Of a stretch of DNA of 64,000 bases, positions 3,701 through 55,153 are shown one piece after another. The notes below the pieces were generated by a model that was not told the DNA's origin, made no database searches, and saw only the letters and a list, made by a program, of their open reading frames with translations. This stretch comes from Escherichia phage vB_EcoS_HZ_ZJUN2, in the sequence record PP216084, one strand, 5' to 3'. Positions within the stretch are counted from its first letter, which is position 1. Each line of letters starts with the position of its first letter. A program made the position numbers and the translations under genes.

Positions 3701-4591
3701 TTATACCAAATCTTTAAGCGATTCAGCAACTAAAATTTCAATACGTTTTGCTAACATATCAATTTCATCTTTGTTTAAATCACCAGGATCTTTGCCTTCG
3801 GGCAGAAGAAAGTTAGCAACTACAGGTGTTAAACGCGTTTTTGTACGAATTAGCTTGGCCAACGCTTGTGCAGCTTTATTACCCGAAGCATCATTATCTA
3901 GTAAGATAACAACAACTTTTACACCAGCAATAATATAAGGACTGAACTTATCTGCAATGTTATCTGAAGTGAACTGATGTGTACCAAAGCAGCAAGAAGC
4001 ATAGTCTATACCGTTATCCTCTAGGTTCAGCATATCAAAGATACCTTCAACTAGAATAAGAACTGGAGTATTATATCGTACAGGGAAAATCGGTGGTGAA
4101 ACTTGTTTTGGTTTTACTAAGTATTTAGGAGGGGCAGAACTGTTTATAGAACGACCCAAAAATAGGATATTGCGTCCAACAGCATCTGTGATTGGGAATA
4201 CAATTCTGCCTTCCCAGTCTGCTTGATGTTGGAAAGCAAAATATTTCTTCAAGGTCTTAGAACTTATACCTCGGAAATCACCTTCGAAAAGGTAAGCAGA
4301 TTCAGGAATTGCAAGATTCGTTGATCCATTCCTAATCTCTGAAATCTTTTTACGTACCTGTGATAGTCTTGGAGACTGTCGGTACTGAGTCTCATTAAAA
4401 TAATGGTAAATGCTCGGTATACCTTTACCGAAGCCACAACTCAAGCAGTGCATAATACCTGTTTCAGGATCAATACGCAAACTTGGGTGTTTATCGTCAT
4501 GATCTGGATTGAGACAACATATAAGAATATCACCACCTGTATCTTTATACTCAATGCCTTTCAGATCAAGTAGTTCTGTTATTCTACTCAT
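3701..4591 (-). CDS. DNA primase (DnaG-like: zinc finger + TOPRIM)
   Basis: N-terminal zinc-finger-like CCLNPDHDDKHPSLRID...CLSCGFGKG and TOPRIM-like LVEGIFDM / VVILLDNDASGNKAA. Confidence 0.8.
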   Translation of the reverse strand: MSRITELLDLKGIEYKDTGGDILICCLNPDHDDKHPSLRIDPETGIMHCLSCGFGKGIPSIYHYFNETQYRQSPRLSQVRKKISEIRNGSTNLAIPESAYLFEGDFRGISSKTLKKYFAFQHQADWEGRIVFPITDAVGRNILFLGRSINSSAPPKYLVKPKQVSPPIFPVRYNTPVLILVEGIFDMLNLEDNGIDYASCCFGTHQFTSDNIADKFSPYIIAGVKVVVILLDNDASGNKAAQALAKLIRTKTRLTPVVANFLLPEGKDPGDLNKDEIDMLAKRIEILVAESLKDLV

Positions 4592-49253: not shown

Positions 49254-49290
49254 AAGCCCAGCCTGCACTTTTGCGACTGGGCTATTTTTA
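49254..49290 (+). terminator. rho-independent terminator
   Basis: GCCCAGCC...GACTGGGC hairpin + TATTTTTAT. Confidence 0.5.
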
Positions 49291-49304
49291 TAATAAAATT
49301 TTAG

Positions 49305-49364: not shown

Positions 49365-50063
49365 ATGAGGATTATTTCTAAGTTCGCCGATGTGTATGAT
49401 TTGCAGAACAGTTTGTTCGACCCAGATCGCGTTTGGGAGCGTAAAACTGAAGAGTTGCTGGTTAAAGTAACCGATGATGCAGAAAAGAACATTGTGCATA
49501 CTCGCCAGGTATTTCGTGATGGCTCGCTATCTTTTCGTGGTGATTTCGAATATTTTGTAAACCCACTATTTGTTGCAGGTGAAGTTTACTGGTTGCACGA
49601 GCTGTACTGCTGGCATCCAGCATTTAGCTTCAAAACGTTTAATCTCGACACTATGTTCGATAAAATGGAAGAGATGGGATTGCATGCTCGCTCTTACTTA
49701 ATGGATAAGAGTCGCGGAGATGTTCGTGAAACAATGCGTGATTTGCTCGCTGAAGCAAAACCTAAAGCAGAACGTATCTTATCCGAACTGCGTGTACCGA
49801 TTGCATATGTGAAAGGTATTAAAAAGAACGATAACGATGATGTTCGTAACTTCGTGATTCAGACTAACATTCGTTTCCATCAATCAGGTATTCCGTGGCA
49901 GGAAATTGAAAGTAACTTATACCGTTTACACCAAGTTCTCGAACAGTATATCTTCGGTGTACTAGGAACTGGTGAGCCTGATATGATTAAAGTATCAGAT
50001 AAAGACAGGTTAGCAGCGCATGGATTTGATACAAAAACTTCTTTCAGGAATATGGCGCGGTAA
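49365..50063 (+). CDS. hypothetical protein (232 aa)
   Basis: ORF track; RBS GAGGATTAAAT. Confidence 0.55.
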   Translation: MRIISKFADVYDLQNSLFDPDRVWERKTEELLVKVTDDAEKNIVHTRQVFRDGSLSFRGDFEYFVNPLFVAGEVYWLHELYCWHPAFSFKTFNLDTMFDKMEEMGLHARSYLMDKSRGDVRETMRDLLAEAKPKAERILSELRVPIAYVKGIKKNDNDDVRNFVIQTNIRFHQSGIPWQEIESNLYRLHQVLEQYIFGVLGTGEPDMIKVSDKDRLAAHGFDTKTSFRNMAR

Positions 50064-50469
50064 GTGGTATATCCTGGGAGCAGGTCTAGCGATAGGCATC
50101 GGGTTCGGTGCTTATCACTTAGTAGATAGAGTGGAGACTTTAGCGGGAGATCTTGCAGTAGCTACTAAAAAGATCTCTTCTCTAGAGACTTCCCTTAATA
50201 AGGTGAAAGCTGAAAGCGAACTTCGTGAGACTAGAATGAATCAGTATTTCACAATGAATAATATTTCGCAAGCAGATCTAGACAAAAAGATTAAGCAGTT
50301 AGATAAAGCTCTTAGTCGCCAAGATATTATAGCTGCAAAGCCTGGATTGGTAACATTAATTGCTAAAAAGCAGAGTAAAGAATTTGAGGAGAGATTAGCA
50401 TGTCTTTCTGGAAGTGTGGAATACTGCTCGCAGCCGCAATCACAATCACAGGCTGTGCACAAGAAATAA
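50020..50469 (+). CDS. putative inner-membrane spanin-like protein (Rz-like: N-terminal TM + coiled coil)
   Basis: TM helix WYILGAGLAIGIGFGAY then coiled-coil LAGDLAVATKKISSLETSLNKVKAESELRE. Confidence 0.45.
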   Translation: MDLIQKLLSGIWRGKWYILGAGLAIGIGFGAYHLVDRVETLAGDLAVATKKISSLETSLNKVKAESELRETRMNQYFTMNNISQADLDKKIKQLDKALSRQDIIAAKPGLVTLIAKKQSKEFEERLACLSGSVEYCSQPQSQSQAVHKK

Positions 50470-50753
50470 AGCCAGAGCCCTCTCATGAGCTACCAACAGC
50501 TCACGTAGATTGGCCTAAAGGACTTCAACCTTGTAGCTTTGACTTTAAGTTTGAAAAGAAAGTAGCTACAAATGGAGAAGATGGCGTAGTAGTTGTTGTA
50601 CCATATAAAGATTGGAATATGTTGGCAAAATGCCGTGAGGCAGAATATTCCTTTATTTCACGATTGACTAGTATGGTTTGCTTCTATCGCCAAGATTTAC
50701 AAGAAAAACGTTGCTTAGTTTACTATCCACCCATTAACAATAGGAAAGATTAA
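50400..50753 (+). CDS. putative outer-membrane lipoprotein, spanin-like (Rz1-like), start overlapping previous ORF
   Basis: Lipoprotein signal with lipobox LAAAITITGC; start embedded in a different frame in the 3' end of ORF 50020-50469. Confidence 0.45.
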   Translation: MSFWKCGILLAAAITITGCAQEIKPEPSHELPTAHVDWPKGLQPCSFDFKFEKKVATNGEDGVVVVVPYKDWNMLAKCREAEYSFISRLTSMVCFYRQDLQEKRCLVYYPPINNRKD

Positions 50754-51505
50754 TGTCAGTATTAGTAGGTTTACATGGCGAGGCAGGTGCAGGAAAAGAT
50801 ACCGTTGCAAAATTAATTATCGATTGGTGTAATGACACGTATCCAACGTGTTCACCCCGTCGTTACAGTTTTGCTAAACCAGTTTATGAGCTTGCATCCG
50901 TAATCCTCGGGGTAACTCCAGAGTTTCTGGGAGAGCGCAGGGGAAAAGAAATTGACCAATGGTTTACTGTCACACAATCTCAATTGGAGCGAGCTAGAGA
51001 CGTATGGTTTAAATACGGTATCGATAAGTTTGAAGACTTCTCGTACGTTTGGCCGATTTTTGAGGAAAAATATCTTAATCCTCAACAACTTATCTCAGAG
51101 AATAAAGAAGACGGACTTTACAGTTTATTTATTTCTCCGAGAAAAATGTTACAGCTCGTAGGAACAGAGCTAGGAAGGCAGCTGGTACATGAACGCATTT
51201 GGCTCATAATTCTGGAGCAATCCATCGCTAAAGACGACCCAGATGTCGCCGTAATAACAGATGTGAGATTCCCCAATGAAGGAGAGTTACTCAGAGAAAC
51301 GAACCATTTAGATATGGATTCTTTACTAATAAATGTAGTGCCCGCTGAGCAGAAGTTCACTATTAAATCAGATCATCCATCTGAAAGTGGTATTCCTGCA
51401 AAATATATCACCCACGAATTAGTTAATAAATTCGATGGTATCAATAACCTTAAACTAGAAGTGTATAACTTCTGTGACTTAGAGCTAGAACCACTAGTTG
51501 GATAA
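50753..51505 (+). CDS. deoxynucleoside monophosphate kinase (P-loop NMP kinase)
   Basis: N-terminal Walker A VGLHGEAGAGKDTVAKL; ~250 aa as for phage dNMP kinases. Confidence 0.7.
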   Translation: MSVLVGLHGEAGAGKDTVAKLIIDWCNDTYPTCSPRRYSFAKPVYELASVILGVTPEFLGERRGKEIDQWFTVTQSQLERARDVWFKYGIDKFEDFSYVWPIFEEKYLNPQQLISENKEDGLYSLFISPRKMLQLVGTELGRQLVHERIWLIILEQSIAKDDPDVAVITDVRFPNEGELLRETNHLDMDSLLINVVPAEQKFTIKSDHPSESGIPAKYITHELVNKFDGINNLKLEVYNFCDLELEPLVG

Positions 51506-51517
51506 TCAAGGATCGCT

Positions 51518-52102
51518 ATGACTAATAAAAAAGAAGAAAAGACTAACCTGTTTCACTCCATTCGCCAATCTAATGAGTATACCTTTTTCTTTGATGAAGA
51601 ATTAGGCCCGCCGGATGAATACCGTGATTTATCAATGGTACTTATGCAGGCAAATGAGGACGACGAAATTAATCTGATGATTAATGGTCCGGGTGGTTAT
51701 GTTGATACTGCTGCACAGTTATCTAACTTAATTGCTAATTGCCGTGGAACAGTTATAGGACATCTGGTTGGTCCTAGTGCTTCTGCTTACTGCACAATTT
51801 TCCTATCCTGCCATGGATGGGTAGTACATCCACATGCTACGCTAATGGGGCACACGTTCTCTGGCGGATTCTGTGAGAAGGGTCAAGAAATCAAGAAAGC
51901 CTATGAATCTTACAACAAGTTCGTAGAAGATATGATGCTAGATGTCTACTATCCGTTCTTCTCTATAGACGAAATCGACGAGATGGTAAAAGACAACAAA
52001 AATATCTATCTAGATAGCAAAGAAATCCATAAGCGTATTGAAATCTTGGCAAAATATCGATCTGAGCAATGTAATAAAGCCCAGTTATCTCAATCAGAGT
52101 AG
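51518..52102 (+). CDS. ClpP-like serine protease (S14 family) homolog
   Basis: ClpP-like core LMINGPGGYVDTAAQLSNLI...VIGHLVGPSASAYCTIFLSCHG...HPHATLMGH. Confidence 0.55.
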   Translation: MTNKKEEKTNLFHSIRQSNEYTFFFDEELGPPDEYRDLSMVLMQANEDDEINLMINGPGGYVDTAAQLSNLIANCRGTVIGHLVGPSASAYCTIFLSCHGWVVHPHATLMGHTFSGGFCEKGQEIKKAYESYNKFVEDMMLDVYYPFFSIDEIDEMVKDNKNIYLDSKEIHKRIEILAKYRSEQCNKAQLSQSE

Positions 52103-52119: not shown

Positions 52120-52155
52120 AGTTTTAAGCCAGGGTTTAACGACCCTGGCTTTTCT
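52120..52155 (+). terminator. rho-independent terminator
   Basis: GCCAGGGTTTAACGACCCTGGC + TTTTCTTTT. Confidence 0.6.
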
Positions 52156-52275
52156 TTTATCTAAAATTCTTATTGACAACGACAAAATTTTATGCTCCAG
52201 AAGTGATCTTTAAAAACACATTGTAATTTTCCTCTAGAATTAGTATAATGGTACTGGTTAGAGGAGGTTACAAAA

Positions 52276-52932
52276 TTGGAAAAGTTCTTACAACTATTAA
52301 CGGTACTGCTCCAAGAAGCGAAAGATCCAGCATCGCTTCTTAAACGTCTGCTAACTATCTTAGTTGCTGTCATTATTTTCTTATTTGTTAGTAATACTAG
52401 TGAGGTGATGTCATTCTTAAAGACTTTTTCCACGTCTGCGGTTCTACAGGATGTTCAAACTCAAAGGATAGATAACTTTCCTAATGTAGCTAGAGAAAAG
52501 AGCATGGTGCTTTTCTCCCAAACGGGTGCGGATGCTGTTTTTGTCGTCAAGTATAAACCCGATGCTATCAATGATTATTCCAATATTATTGCATGGGAAA
52601 GTGATGCGCAATTAGATAGGGCTGACTTGGCTGATAAAGCGGTAAATAAAACGTCTGAATTATACAGACGTCACTTGGAAGGCTTTAACTACGCATCGGA
52701 TTTAAGTGTAAAAGTAAATAAATACATGGGGTTAAATATACCTGCGTTTAAGAACGTTACCTTTAATTACATATACACTTGTCCGTATTTCAATCTAAAC
52801 AATATCTATGCTGGATATATTGGTATTGCTTGGAAAGATAATCCTGTAGATGCAGCCGATTCTGAGAAATTTAACGAGTACTTAACAAAGCTCTGTTCCC
52901 CACAACAGAGATCTTTAGGTAGATCAATATGA
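52276..52932 (+). CDS. putative holin (membrane protein immediately upstream of and coupled to endolysin)
   Basis: 218 aa, N-terminal TM segment LLTILVAVIIFLFV; stop overlaps endolysin start (ATGA). Confidence 0.5.
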   Translation: MEKFLQLLTVLLQEAKDPASLLKRLLTILVAVIIFLFVSNTSEVMSFLKTFSTSAVLQDVQTQRIDNFPNVAREKSMVLFSQTGADAVFVVKYKPDAINDYSNIIAWESDAQLDRADLADKAVNKTSELYRRHLEGFNYASDLSVKVNKYMGLNIPAFKNVTFNYIYTCPYFNLNNIYAGYIGIAWKDNPVDAADSEKFNEYLTKLCSPQQRSLGRSI

Positions 52933-53342
52933 GTTTTAAATTTAGTCAAAGAAGTTTAGATAGATTAAAAGGTGTTCACCCCGACTTAGTAAAAGTAACA
53001 CATAGGGCTTTAGAATTAAGCCCCTATGATTTTACTATTACAGAAGGACTTCGTTCCCTAGAACAAAGTGCTAAGAACATTGCTAATGGTACATCTTTCT
53101 TAAAAGATCCTAGCAAATCTAAGCATGTTCAAGGTAGGGCGGTAGATTTTGCTCCGCTTAAGGATGGAAAGATTGACTGGAATGATCTAGAATCCTTTAA
53201 GTTAGTGGCAGATGCCTTCTTTAAGGCAGCGGAAGAGCTAGGAGTAAAGATTAGATGGGGTGGTGATTGGAACCAGAATGGAAGTTATAAGGATGAAATC
53301 CAACGTGGTACTTTTGATGGCCCACATATAGAATTGATTTAA
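52929..53342 (+). CDS. endolysin, L-alanyl-D-glutamate peptidase (M15-type), 137 aa
   Basis: Zn-ligand context HVQGRAVDFAP...DW...IRWGGDW; size matches the T5 endolysin. Confidence 0.8.
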   Translation: MSFKFSQRSLDRLKGVHPDLVKVTHRALELSPYDFTITEGLRSLEQSAKNIANGTSFLKDPSKSKHVQGRAVDFAPLKDGKIDWNDLESFKLVADAFFKAAEELGVKIRWGGDWNQNGSYKDEIQRGTFDGPHIELI

Positions 53343-53913: not shown

Positions 53914-54342
53914 ATGTCTGATCGTTTCTATACTCAAATGGCGGAACATTTTCGTATACCACATTACGAGCTAAACATTGCACTCCGTGACCATGACTCT
54001 CCTGAGTACAAAAAGCTCGAAAAGAAGGCGGAAAAATCTATTGATACAAAGGTAGGTGCACCTATGTCTAAGGGCAAAAAGTTAACTCGTCTTGATCTTA
54101 ATAAAATTTTAACTGAACTTTTGGGTACTGATATTGAAGGTGCTAAATTACCACTTCTTGTACTAGAGACTATGATTAAAAAGGTCAAAAATAAAGAATA
54201 TAAGAAGGTAGAAGTCCCAGAAGGCAGATTAAAGGCTCCGTATCAGGAAGCATTAACCGAGTGTTTGGGTGTAAATCTTGATCTGAGCACCGCAACTGTT
54301 AAGTGCATGAAAAACTTCTTAGAAGCTATTAATAAACTATGA
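53914..54342 (+). CDS. hypothetical protein (142 aa)
   Basis: ORF track; RBS AGAGAGG. Confidence 0.5.
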   Translation: MSDRFYTQMAEHFRIPHYELNIALRDHDSPEYKKLEKKAEKSIDTKVGAPMSKGKKLTRLDLNKILTELLGTDIEGAKLPLLVLETMIKKVKNKEYKKVEVPEGRLKAPYQEALTECLGVNLDLSTATVKCMKNFLEAINKL

Positions 54343-54866
54343 TTACACAGGATACTCTTAAACAGATGTTCAATTACGACCCTGAAACGGGAATCTTTAC
54401 ATGGAAAGTAAGTAGAGGACCGAAAAAGAAGGGCGATATAGCAGGAACACTCACCAAAGATGGATACATTAGAATAACCATTAATAAACGCCCTTATTAT
54501 GCGCAGCAATTAGCATGTCTATACATGACTGGAGAATGGCCAGAGCATGAGATGGACCATGAAAATCGCATAACCTATGATAATAGGTGGTGTAATATTC
54601 GTAATGCTACTAAACAGGAAAATCTAAGAAATAGGAAGGCATGGGGTAAATCCGGCTATTTAGGAGTTTCATGGAATCGAGGTAAGTGGCAAGTCTACGT
54701 CGTGAACTCAAATGGAGAAAGTATATCCGGCGGGCGTTTTGAACATAAAGATTTAGAATTGGCAGTTAAATCAGCCAATACTTTAAGAGCAAAATTGCAC
54801 GGGGAACGTGCAATTTTTGAAGAATTTACAGGATATATACCTGATATTGGAGAGTTAAATAAATGA
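54339..54866 (+). CDS. HNH homing endonuclease
   Basis: N-terminal module FNYDPETGIFTWKVSRG and HNH core DHENRITYDNRWCNIRNAT; paralog of 4588, 33519 and 57830. Confidence 0.75.
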   Translation: MITQDTLKQMFNYDPETGIFTWKVSRGPKKKGDIAGTLTKDGYIRITINKRPYYAQQLACLYMTGEWPEHEMDHENRITYDNRWCNIRNATKQENLRNRKAWGKSGYLGVSWNRGKWQVYVVNSNGESISGGRFEHKDLELAVKSANTLRAKLHGERAIFEEFTGYIPDIGELNK

Positions 54867-55153
54867 GTAAATTAGTATATCTATTGAAAGGTTCCACTTG
54901 CAATCCTTGCAAAATGTTTGAGCCAGTATTTGATAAAGTAGTCAGTGACTATAATTTGGAAATCCATAAAGAGACTGATAATACAGAATTAATGCAGAAA
55001 TTTGGTGTGCGCCAAGTTCCTGTAGTAGTTCTGGCGGATCGTTTACCTAATGGTCGAGTAGAAGCTAATCATATTTTGATTGGACGTCAGCTTCGTAAAG
55101 AAACTATGCACGAAGCTATTAAAAATTTCCTGGATGATAATCCAGAGGACTAA
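54863..55153 (+). CDS. thioredoxin/glutaredoxin-like protein (CxxC)
   Basis: Active-site-like STCNPCKM near N-terminus, ~96 aa; plausible RNR reductant. Confidence 0.55.
   Translation: MSKLVYLLKGSTCNPCKMFEPVFDKVVSDYNLEIHKETDNTELMQKFGVRQVPVVVLADRLPNGRVEANHILIGRQLRKETMHEAIKNFLDDNPED

What the first reader, a model, noticed from the sequence alone, without database searches (positions are those of the whole stretch)
50020..50753. Overlapped spanin-like gene pair located ~2 kb upstream of the holin-endolysin cassette
ORF 50020-50469 has a TM helix plus coiled coil (i-spanin-like). ORF 50400-50753 starts inside its 3' end in another frame and encodes a lipoprotein signal with lipobox ITGC (o-spanin-like). 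The pair is separated from holin/endolysin (52276-53342) by dNMP kinase and a ClpP-like gene, an unusual arrangement.
Basis: inference. Interest (0 to 1): 0.5.

Follow-up and report, generated by a model that had tools for sequence, protein, structure and literature searches.

The report
Known T5-type overlapped spanin gene pair
These two overlapping genes are the ordinary, already catalogued inner- and outer-membrane spanin genes of a T5-like phage, which break the host's outer membrane at the end of lysis, and their position apart from the holin and endolysin genes is the norm for this phage family.

Summary
ORF 50020-50469 (149 aa) has an N-terminal transmembrane helix followed by a heptad-repeat helix. 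ORF 50400-50753 (117 aa) starts 70 nt inside it in another frame, behind a strong Shine-Dalgarno sequence, and opens with a lipoprotein signal (lipobox ITGC, Cys19, Ala at +2).

The window is a T5-like phage (Tequintavirus). The pair is 91% and 95% identical to T5 genes T5p044 and T5p043. It belongs to the published "T5 family" of overlapped two-component spanins, described with the same 70-bp overlap (Kongari et al. 2018). Many GenBank records label the orthologues i-spanin/o-spanin.

Both proteins fall in the same PHROG families as the T4 spanins PseT.3 and PseT.2, which have been tested experimentally. They keep the two o-spanin cysteines that are essential in T4.

The layout spanins, dNMP kinase, Clp-like protease, terminator/promoter, holin, endolysin is not unusual. 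All 38 related loci examined have it, across at least four Demerecviridae genera, and more than 420 phage records match the region.

Verdict: real, correctly interpreted, already known, low interest. I found no direct experimental test of a T5-family spanin.

The parts
50020..50469 (+). i-spanin gene (149 aa), orthologue of T5p044. It overlaps the upstream gene 49365-50063 by 44 nt.
   Evidence: ORF. PHROG 739 'Rz-like spanin', E=7e-37. 91% identity to T5p044 and 94% to the JLBYU40 'putative i-spanin'. Third-codon-position excess of variation, 18/9/61.
50068..50124 (+). Transmembrane helix of the i-spanin (residues 17-35), preceded by K6, R13 and K15. This predicts an N-in / C-out (periplasmic) topology.
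   Evidence: Kyte-Doolittle maximum 1.55. Residues are nearly invariant among 23 homologues.
50125..50256 (+). Heptad-repeat / coiled-coil helix of the i-spanin periplasmic domain (about residues 36-79).
   Evidence: 8 of 8 hydrophobic a/d positions for residues 36-63; 6 of 2000 shuffles match. Published coiled-coil calls are 31-73 for T5 and 33-75 for the 149-aa Stitch orthologue (PMC6139136 supplement). The AF2 model is helical for residues 45-79 and 84-98, but at low confidence.
50335..50355 (+). Conserved AKPGLVT motif of the i-spanin (residues 106-112), shared with T4 PseT.3 (HKPGLV).
   Evidence: A106, K107, P108, L110 and T112 are invariant across four genera. Aligned with T4 PseT.3 by hhalign.
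50400..50469 (+). 70-nt overlap. In one frame it encodes the Cys-containing C-terminal tail of the i-spanin (C128-X7-C136 and onward). In the other it encodes the signal peptide and lipobox of the o-spanin.
   Evidence: Coordinates. C128, G131 and C136 are invariant. Substitutions in the overlap are listed. The same 70-bp overlap is reported for T5, SPC35 and Stitch (PMC6139136).
50386..50393 (+). Shine-Dalgarno sequence GAGGAGAG of the o-spanin gene, 6 nt before the ATG, lying inside the i-spanin coding sequence.
   Evidence: Sequence read.
50400..50753 (+). o-spanin gene (117 aa; 99-aa mature lipoprotein), orthologue of T5p043.
   Evidence: ORF. PHROG 812, E=3e-28. 95% identity to T5p043 and 97.4% to the SelmaRatti o-spanin. 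hhalign probability 97.4% to T4 PseT.2. Codon-position variation 15/12/50.
50445..50456 (+). Lipobox ITGC (residues 16-19). Cys19 is the predicted acylated N-terminus of the mature protein. The +2 residue is Ala, so no inner-membrane retention signal.
   Evidence: Cys19 is invariant, G18 is near-invariant, and no Asp occurs at +2 in the 19 of 20 homologues whose signal peptide could be scored.
50673..50714 (+). C-terminal motif M-V-C94-F-Y-R-Q-D-L-Q-E-K-R-C105 of the o-spanin. It aligns with T4 PseT.2 C87...C98.
   Evidence: C94, Y96 and C105 are invariant in 20 sequences including T4. hhalign alignment. Both Cys are essential in T4 (PMC6139136).
50532..50633 (+). Segment bounded by the second cysteine pair, C45 and C78, of the o-spanin.
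   Evidence: The two cysteines are present together in 13 and absent together in 7 of 20 family representatives. Both are also missing in Providencia phage PSTCR5.
49365..50063 (+). Conserved upstream gene (232 aa, PHROG 4243, unknown function), first gene of the presumed transcription unit. A promoter-like site lies at 49271-49299.
   Evidence: T5 annotates a promoter at the equivalent place upstream of T5p046.
50753..51505 (+). dNMP kinase gene (dnk). Its ATG overlaps the o-spanin stop codon.
   Evidence: Pfam DNMK E=1e-10 and PHROG 139. 98% identity to T5 dnk.
51518..52102 (+). Clp-protease-like gene.
   Evidence: PF00574 E=3.5e-8 and PHROG 1827 E=1e-88.
52126..52161 (+). Intrinsic-terminator-like hairpin (11-bp stem followed by a T run) that would end the unit containing the spanin genes.
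52221..52249 (+). Promoter-like site TTGTAA-17-TATAAT in front of the holin gene.
   Evidence: T5 annotates a promoter at the equivalent place.
52276..52932 (+). T4 T-type holin gene (218 aa, TTG start).
   Evidence: PF11031 E=2e-113.
52929..53342 (+). Endolysin gene (M15 L-alanyl-D-glutamate peptidase type, 137 aa).
   Evidence: PF13539 E=1.6e-8 and PHROG 465 E=2e-58.

Best explanation
The two ORFs are the two-component spanin of a T5-like phage.

Shown from sequence: the 149-aa protein has the features of a type II inner-membrane protein, with a mostly helical, heptad-repeat periplasmic domain that ends in a conserved AKPGLVT...C-X7-C tail. The 117-aa protein has a signal-peptidase-II lipoprotein signal with no inner-membrane retention residue.

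Inferred by homology with T4 PseT.3/PseT.2 and by analogy with lambda Rz/Rz1: the lipoprotein is acylated at Cys19 and sorted to the outer membrane. The two proteins bind through their C-terminal regions to form a complex that spans the periplasm and is trapped within the peptidoglycan mesh. The T-type holin (52276-52932) triggers and lets the M15 endolysin (52929-53342) destroy the murein. The freed complexes then change conformation and fuse the inner and outer membranes, which removes the last barrier to release of progeny phage.

Disulfides are probably needed. The o-spanin pair C94/C105 corresponds to the T4 pair that is essential and isomerises to intermolecular links. C45/C78 probably form an extra structural disulfide. 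The i-spanin pair C128/C136 has no T4 counterpart.

The spanin genes appear to be transcribed with the upstream gene, dnk and clp from their own promoter. The holin and endolysin genes follow a terminator and a separate promoter. Lysis timing would therefore rest with the holin, not with spanin synthesis.
For: - Anatomy.
- PHROG spanin families 739 and 812, E=7e-37 and 3e-28.
- T4 PseT.3 and PseT.2 hit the same two PHROGs at 1e-37 and 5e-42.
- hhalign probability is 95.4% (i-spanin) and 97.4% (o-spanin) against the T4 proteins, with the MxCxYRQxLxExxC and KPGLV motifs aligned.
- T4 pseT.3/pseT.2 complement lambda Rz-am Rz1-am, and both PseT.2 cysteines are essential (PMC6139136).
- 91% and 95% identity to T5p044 and T5p043, which are members of the published overlapped 'T5 family' with a 70-bp overlap.
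- GenBank labels of i-spanin/o-spanin in many orthologous records.
- Purifying selection in each reading frame.
- The lipobox Cys, C94, Y96 and C105 are invariant across 20 representatives down to 20% identity.
- Synteny with the holin and endolysin in all 38 loci.
- Terminator and promoter between clp and the holin gene, matching the promoter annotation in T5.
Against: - I found no direct experimental test of any T5-family spanin in the searchable literature. Function rests on homology to T4 and on topology signals.
- Pfam, NCBIfam and PDB sequence searches gave no significant hit. There is therefore no detectable relationship to lambda Rz/Rz1.
- The AF2 monomer models were of low confidence (pLDDT 45 and 41), so the fold and the interface are not established.
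- The promoter and terminator calls are consensus matches only. Promoter-like sites were no more frequent than in shuffled sequence.
- No dedicated LipoP or SignalP predictor was available. The lipoprotein call is rule-based.
Confidence: 0.9

Rival explanations
1. The pair is a membrane protein plus lipoprotein with a non-lytic role. One example would be superinfection exclusion or receptor masking, like the T5 lipoprotein Llp that blocks FhuA. In that case it only resembles spanins in topology.
For: No T5-family spanin has been tested directly. The genes sit among early-type metabolic genes (dnk, clp), not in the holin-endolysin operon. T5-like phages do encode other small lipoproteins (Llp is mentioned in PMC4342426).
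Against: Both partners show profile-level homology to T4 PseT.3/PseT.2, whose spanin function was shown by complementation. The cysteines essential in T4 are invariant. [quoted passage not shown] The coiled-coil plus lipoprotein pairing is what the spanin model requires.
Confidence: 0.05
2. Only the 149-aa ORF is a gene. The 50400-50753 ORF is an accidental open frame with a fortuitous lipobox.
For: It starts inside another gene. Several GenBank records leave it unannotated or truncated. HMD-P5 annotates only the last 44 codons, and PSTCR5 annotates none of it.
Against: 284 of its 354 nt lie outside the i-spanin gene, in a stretch that has no other ORF on the + strand. Variation there is concentrated at its own third codon positions, 15/12/50. 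There is a strong Shine-Dalgarno sequence. It is conserved as an ORF with an invariant lipobox Cys down to 20% identity. The truncated annotations are explained by a GTG start in those phages that is synonymous in the i-spanin frame.
Confidence: 0.01
3. The pair is a true spanin, but it contributes little to lysis in practice. Outer-membrane disruption would mainly be achieved by other means, such as shear or another phage factor, so deleting the pair gives no phenotype under normal conditions.
For: From my own knowledge, not tested here: spanin defects in lambda are masked in shaken cultures without divalent cations.
Against: Both genes are strictly conserved under purifying selection in several hundred Demerecviridae genomes. 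This holds even where homing endonuclease genes have inserted beside or between them without destroying them.
Confidence: 0.04

Closest known systems
Phage T5 spanins T5p044 (i-spanin) and T5p043 (o-spanin): the 'T5 family' of Kongari et al. 2018 (T5, EPS7, Stitch, SPC35, AKFV33, FFH1, DT57C, My1, phiR201, Shivani)
   Same: Identity is 91% and 95%. The o-spanin has the same length (117 aa), the overlap is the same 70 nt, and the lipobox ITGC is the same. All six periplasmic cysteines are shared, as are the neighbours dnk, clp, holin and endolysin. The 149-aa i-spanin form is the one listed for phage Stitch.
   Different: T5 has an HNH homing endonuclease gene (T5p045) directly upstream. Its i-spanin therefore has a different N-terminal 15 residues (MRKWFVDLVWNNK..., 147 aa). 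In the window the i-spanin start overlaps the 232-aa upstream gene by 44 nt. The window also lacks the endonuclease gene that separates the two spanin genes in Shivani-type phages.
[quoted passage not shown]
   Same: Same PHROG families, 739 and 812. hhalign probability is 95% and 97%. They share the KPGLV motif, the W-P motif and the C-terminal MxCxYRQxLxExxC motif, whose two cysteines are essential in T4. Both phages also use a T-type holin (PF11031), and in both the spanin genes lie away from the holin gene.
   Different: Pairwise identity is only about 20-26%. The T4 genes overlap by 4 nt and are classed as 'separated'. The T4 i-spanin has no cysteine and lacks the C-X7-C tail. The T4 o-spanin lacks the C45/C78 pair. 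The T4 endolysin is a lysozyme, not an M15 peptidase (the T4 side from my own knowledge).
Phage lambda Rz/Rz1
   Same: Same functional class and topology: a type II inner-membrane coiled-coil protein plus an outer-membrane lipoprotein, encoded by genes that share DNA in two frames, with periplasmic cysteines (PMC6139136).
   Different: No detectable sequence similarity; there were no Pfam hits at E<=0.1. Rz1 is wholly embedded in Rz, whereas here the genes only overlap. Mature Rz1 is short, proline-rich and unstructured. This o-spanin is 99 aa when mature, and published predictions for the T5 family give about 18% helix and 27% strand. The lambda genes sit immediately after S and R in one cassette.

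Membership tests
Two-component spanin (functional class) | i-spanin: a single N-terminal transmembrane domain with N-in topology and a periplasmic, largely helical coiled-coil domain | tested here: met
   TMD at residues 17-35, Kyte-Doolittle mean 1.55, with K6/R13/K15 upstream. Heptad a/d positions 8 of 8 hydrophobic, 6 of 2000 shuffles match. Published coiled-coil calls for orthologues.
Two-component spanin (functional class) | o-spanin: a lipoprotein signal peptide with lipobox Cys and no inner-membrane retention residue (Asp) at +2 | tested here: met
   LLAAAITITGC fits the PROSITE-type rule. K5 is in the n-region, the Cys is at position 19, and +2 is Ala. Invariant across the family. No dedicated LipoP or SignalP run was possible.
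Two-component spanin (functional class) | The two genes are adjacent in an embedded, overlapped or separated architecture, with the i-spanin first | tested here: met
   70-nt overlap in a different frame. Overlaps of 34-88 nt occur in the other genera.
Two-component spanin (functional class) | At least one periplasmic cysteine available for homotypic intermolecular disulfides | tested here: met
   i-spanin C128 and C136; mature o-spanin C45, C78, C94 and C105. Whether disulfides actually form could not be tested.
Two-component spanin (functional class) | [quoted passage not shown] | not testable with these tools
   This needs complementation or deletion experiments. No published test for the T5 family was found.
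T5 spanin family (Kongari et al. 2018: at least 40% identity over at least 40% of length) | Sequence identity to the T5 i-spanin and o-spanin above the family threshold | tested here: met
   91% to T5p044 and 95% to T5p043 over the full length.
T4 PseT.3/PseT.2-like spanin superfamily (PHROG 739 / 812) | Significant profile match for both partners, with the two essential o-spanin cysteines conserved | tested here: met
   PHROG E=7e-37 and 3e-28. The T4 proteins hit the same PHROGs. hhalign probability 95.4% and 97.4%. C94 and C105 align with T4 C87 and C98.
Lambda Rz (Pfam Phage_lysis) / Rz1 sequence families | Significant match to the Pfam models for Rz and Rz1 | tested here: not met
   No such Pfam hit at E<=0.1 for either protein. 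The pair is a functional analogue of lambda Rz/Rz1, not a detectable homologue.

The most novel reading that the evidence does not exclude
The T5-type complex may use a covalent architecture that differs from both studied models. It combines three elements. First, it has the T4-like essential o-spanin pair C94/C105. Second, it has an extra o-spanin pair, C45/C78, that is always gained or lost together. Third, it has an i-spanin C-X7-C tail, invariant across genera, that T4 lacks and that is encoded entirely within the region overlapping the o-spanin signal sequence. That tail may have arisen by read-through (overprinting) into the o-spanin leader. It could provide i-spanin dimerisation, or even a heterotypic i-o disulfide, which has not been described for spanins.
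Probability: 0.25. Interest if true: 0.3.

Novelty: already known. Interest (0 to 1): 0.08.

Why it matters
It matters little as a discovery. The pair is a textbook-class lysis function, already catalogued for T5 and annotated in many close relatives.

Its practical value is for annotation. The o-spanin gene is often missed or truncated in T5-like genomes because it overlaps the i-spanin gene and sometimes starts with GTG.

The T5 family is also a natural intermediate between the T4 and lambda spanin systems for anyone studying disulfide requirements or the evolution of overlapping genes. No member appears to have been tested experimentally.

Tried and rejected
- **Pfam, NCBIfam and PDB sequence searches.** These gave only sub-threshold noise, such as FtsL, MctB and VgrG. 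I rejected these hits as meaningless.
- **The search for homologous proteins with the o-spanin.** It returned only 4 clusters. The profile search of 1.84 billion representatives gave 23 hits. The family is therefore small and largely confined to T5-like and T4-like phages.
- **AlphaFold2 monomer models.** Mean pLDDT was 45 and 41, so I ran no fold search and drew no structural conclusion beyond the helical tendency.
- **Literature searches for a direct test of T5 spanins.** I found none. The two 2025 phage-essentiality preprints I read (HIDEN-SEQ and a transposon-mutagenesis study) do not cover T5-like phages.
- **Is the separation from the holin and endolysin genes a rearrangement specific to this phage?** Rejected: the synteny is identical in all 38 loci.
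- **Is the 44-nt overlap of the i-spanin start with the upstream gene a sign of a wrong start codon?** The only in-frame start codons before the transmembrane helix are ATG 50020 and TTG 50026. The start is therefore essentially fixed.

Full report
**Identity of the window**

The 4.1-kb region 49300-53400 matches 449 phage records, 421 of them over at least 80% of its length. The best matches are about 93-94% identical and are almost all T5-like phages of Salmonella and Escherichia (Tequintavirus and relatives, Demerecviridae). The window is therefore part of a T5-like phage genome.

**Observation**

The ORF listing returns both ORFs at exactly the stated coordinates: 50020-50469 (149 aa) and 50400-50753 (117 aa). 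They lie in different frames and share 70 nt.

The first protein has its hydrophobic maximum at residues 17-35 (YILGAGLAIGIGFGAYHLV), preceded by K6, R13 and K15. Residues 36-63 follow a perfect heptad pattern, with 8 of 8 a/d positions hydrophobic; only 6 of 2000 shuffles do as well.

The second ORF is preceded by GAGGAGAG 6 nt before its ATG. It begins MSFWKCGILLAAAITITGC|AQE, which has a basic n-region, a hydrophobic core, the lipobox ITGC with Cys19, and Ala at +2.

Both frames are under purifying selection. Among 28 distinct close relatives, variable sites by codon position are 18/9/61 in the i-only part and 15/12/50 in the o-only part, each in its own frame. The overlap is the least diverse segment (mean per-site diversity 0.049, against 0.068 and 0.093).

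**What it is**

The two proteins hit PHROG 739 and PHROG 812, both described as 'Rz-like spanin', at E=7e-37 and 3e-28. The T5 orthologues are T5p044 (91% identity) and T5p043 (95% identity). RefSeq T5 labels both 'Rz-like spanin', and many other records call the orthologues i-spanin and o-spanin.

Kongari et al. 2018 (PMC6139136) define a 'T5 family' for both the i-spanins and the o-spanins. Its members are T5, EPS7, Stitch, SPC35, AKFV33, FFH1, DT57C, My1, phiR201 and Shivani. The paper states that the T5 spanin genes overlap by 70 bp. Its supplement lists T5 as 147 aa and 117 aa, and Stitch as 149 aa and 117 aa. Both are 'ovl 70', with one coiled coil at residues 31-73 (T5) or 33-75 (Stitch). 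The window carries the Stitch-type form.

**Link to an experimentally tested system**

T4 PseT.3 and PseT.2 hit the same two PHROGs, at E=1e-37 and 5e-42. Profile-profile comparison of my Demerecviridae alignments with the T4 proteins gives 95.4% probability for the i-spanin and 97.4% for the o-spanin.

The o-spanin motif SMVC94FYRQDLQEKRC105 aligns with T4 TMxC87YYRQELKEDKC98. In T4 the pair complements lambda Rz-am Rz1-am, and both of these cysteines are essential (PMC6139136).

A profile search of 1.84 billion representative proteins found only 23 relatives. I aligned 18 of them with the window protein and T4 PseT.2, giving 20 sequences. In that alignment the lipobox Cys, C94, Y96 and C105 are invariant. 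No sequence whose signal peptide could be scored has Asp at +2.

The second cysteine pair, C45/C78, is present together in 13 sequences and absent together in 7. Both are also absent in Providencia phage PSTCR5. This pattern suggests that the two cysteines pair with each other.

The i-spanin tail C128-X7-C136 is invariant in all four genera examined, is absent from T4, and lies entirely inside the overlap.

**Mechanism (inferred)**

The published model, based on lambda and T4, is as follows.
- The i-spanin is anchored in the inner membrane and the lipoylated o-spanin in the outer membrane.
- They bind through their C-terminal regions and span the periplasm within the murein mesh.
- Once the holin-released endolysin has degraded the murein, they fuse the two membranes.

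Here the steps shown are the topology signals, the homology and the conservation. Complex formation, disulfide chemistry and membrane fusion are inferred.

**Arrangement**

A strong terminator-like hairpin lies at 52126-52151, followed by a T run. A promoter-like site, TTGTAA-17-TATAAT, lies at 52221-52249. Both sit between clp and the holin gene. T5 annotates promoters at the equivalent positions, upstream of T5p046 and upstream of the holin gene. The spanin genes therefore probably belong to a separate transcription unit running from 49365 to 52102.

This layout is not unusual for the group. The order 232-aa gene, i-spanin, o-spanin, dnk, clp, holin, endolysin is found in all 38 related loci examined. 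These include Klebsiella Sugarlandvirus, Pectobacterium Hongcheonvirus and Providencia Priunavirus. T4 likewise keeps its spanin genes apart from its holin gene t and endolysin gene e.

The only variation in the layout is insertion of homing endonuclease genes:
- before the i-spanin gene (T5 type);
- between the two spanin genes (Shivani type; L015, L016, L020);
- between the o-spanin gene and dnk (L015, which is phage H8).

These are shown. The window has none of the three insertions.

**Limits**

Pfam, NCBIfam and PDB give no significant hit, so there is no detectable homology with lambda Rz/Rz1. The AF2 monomer models were poor (pLDDT 45 and 41). I found no published experiment on a T5-family spanin.

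**Verdict**

Only the 'unusual arrangement' claim fails. The feature is already known and of low interest.

Noticed in passing
window 52929-53342: The endolysin is only about 64% identical to the T5-type endolysin found in most relatives, but 95-99% identical to that of a minority (L014, L016, L020). The adjacent holin is 93-100% identical in all the Tequintavirus-type loci. This looks like two endolysin alleles exchanged among T5-like phages.
   Followed up: partly
window 50400; L001 2601-2954; L021, L025, L026, L027, L032: In six relatives the o-spanin start codon is GTG instead of ATG. This A-to-G change is synonymous (GCA to GCG) in the overlapping i-spanin frame. It explains why some records truncate the gene (HMD-P5 annotates only the last 44 codons). 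PSTCR5 leaves the gene unannotated although its start codon is ATG.
   Followed up: yes
window 50020 and 50753 junctions; L002 2963-3460; L015 2412-2909, 3315-4013, 4356-4892; L016 3315-4013: The spanin locus is a hot spot for homing endonuclease genes in relatives. Insertions occur upstream of the i-spanin gene (T5 HNH T5p045), between the i- and o-spanin genes (a 232-aa ORF, which replaces the last residues of the i-spanin and the first residues of the o-spanin), and between the o-spanin gene and dnk (phage H8). The window has the empty allele at all three sites.
   Followed up: partly
window 54339-54866: A 175-aa ORF with an HNH_3 domain (E=1e-11) lies between the 142-aa gene (53914-54342) and the thioredoxin-like gene (54863-55153). 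In phage HMD-P5 those two genes are adjacent. This is probably a homing endonuclease insertion specific to this phage lineage.
   Followed up: partly
window about 50934-50935, minus strand (inside dnk): The site annotated in T5 as a 'major DNA single-chain interruption' aligns here with its GCGC-containing context conserved; the minus strand reads CCTGCGC|TCTCC. This phage probably carries the same genomic nick.
   Followed up: partly
L004 3980-4456 (Klebsiella phage Shiner): The annotated i-spanin start (4049) leaves only about 14 hydrophobic residues at the N-terminus. The open frame starts at a TTG at 3980, and the tblastn match to the window i-spanin reaches upstream of the annotated start to 4001. 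The true start is probably upstream and overlaps the preceding gene, as in the window.
   Followed up: no
window 49365-50063: The conserved 232-aa gene just upstream of the spanin genes (PHROG 4243, unknown function; no Pfam or NCBIfam hit) is labelled 'DNA polymerase III subunit epsilon' in some records. I found no support for that label. It exists as two alleles only about 55% identical among otherwise close relatives.
   Followed up: no
protein hits P0001, P0059, P0066; records: Near-identical T5-like spanin sequences are filed in public databases under Shigella sonnei, Brucella melitensis, Enterococcus faecalis, and 'Campylobacter' or 'Listeria' phages. These are most likely contamination or host mislabelling rather than real host range.
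   Followed up: no
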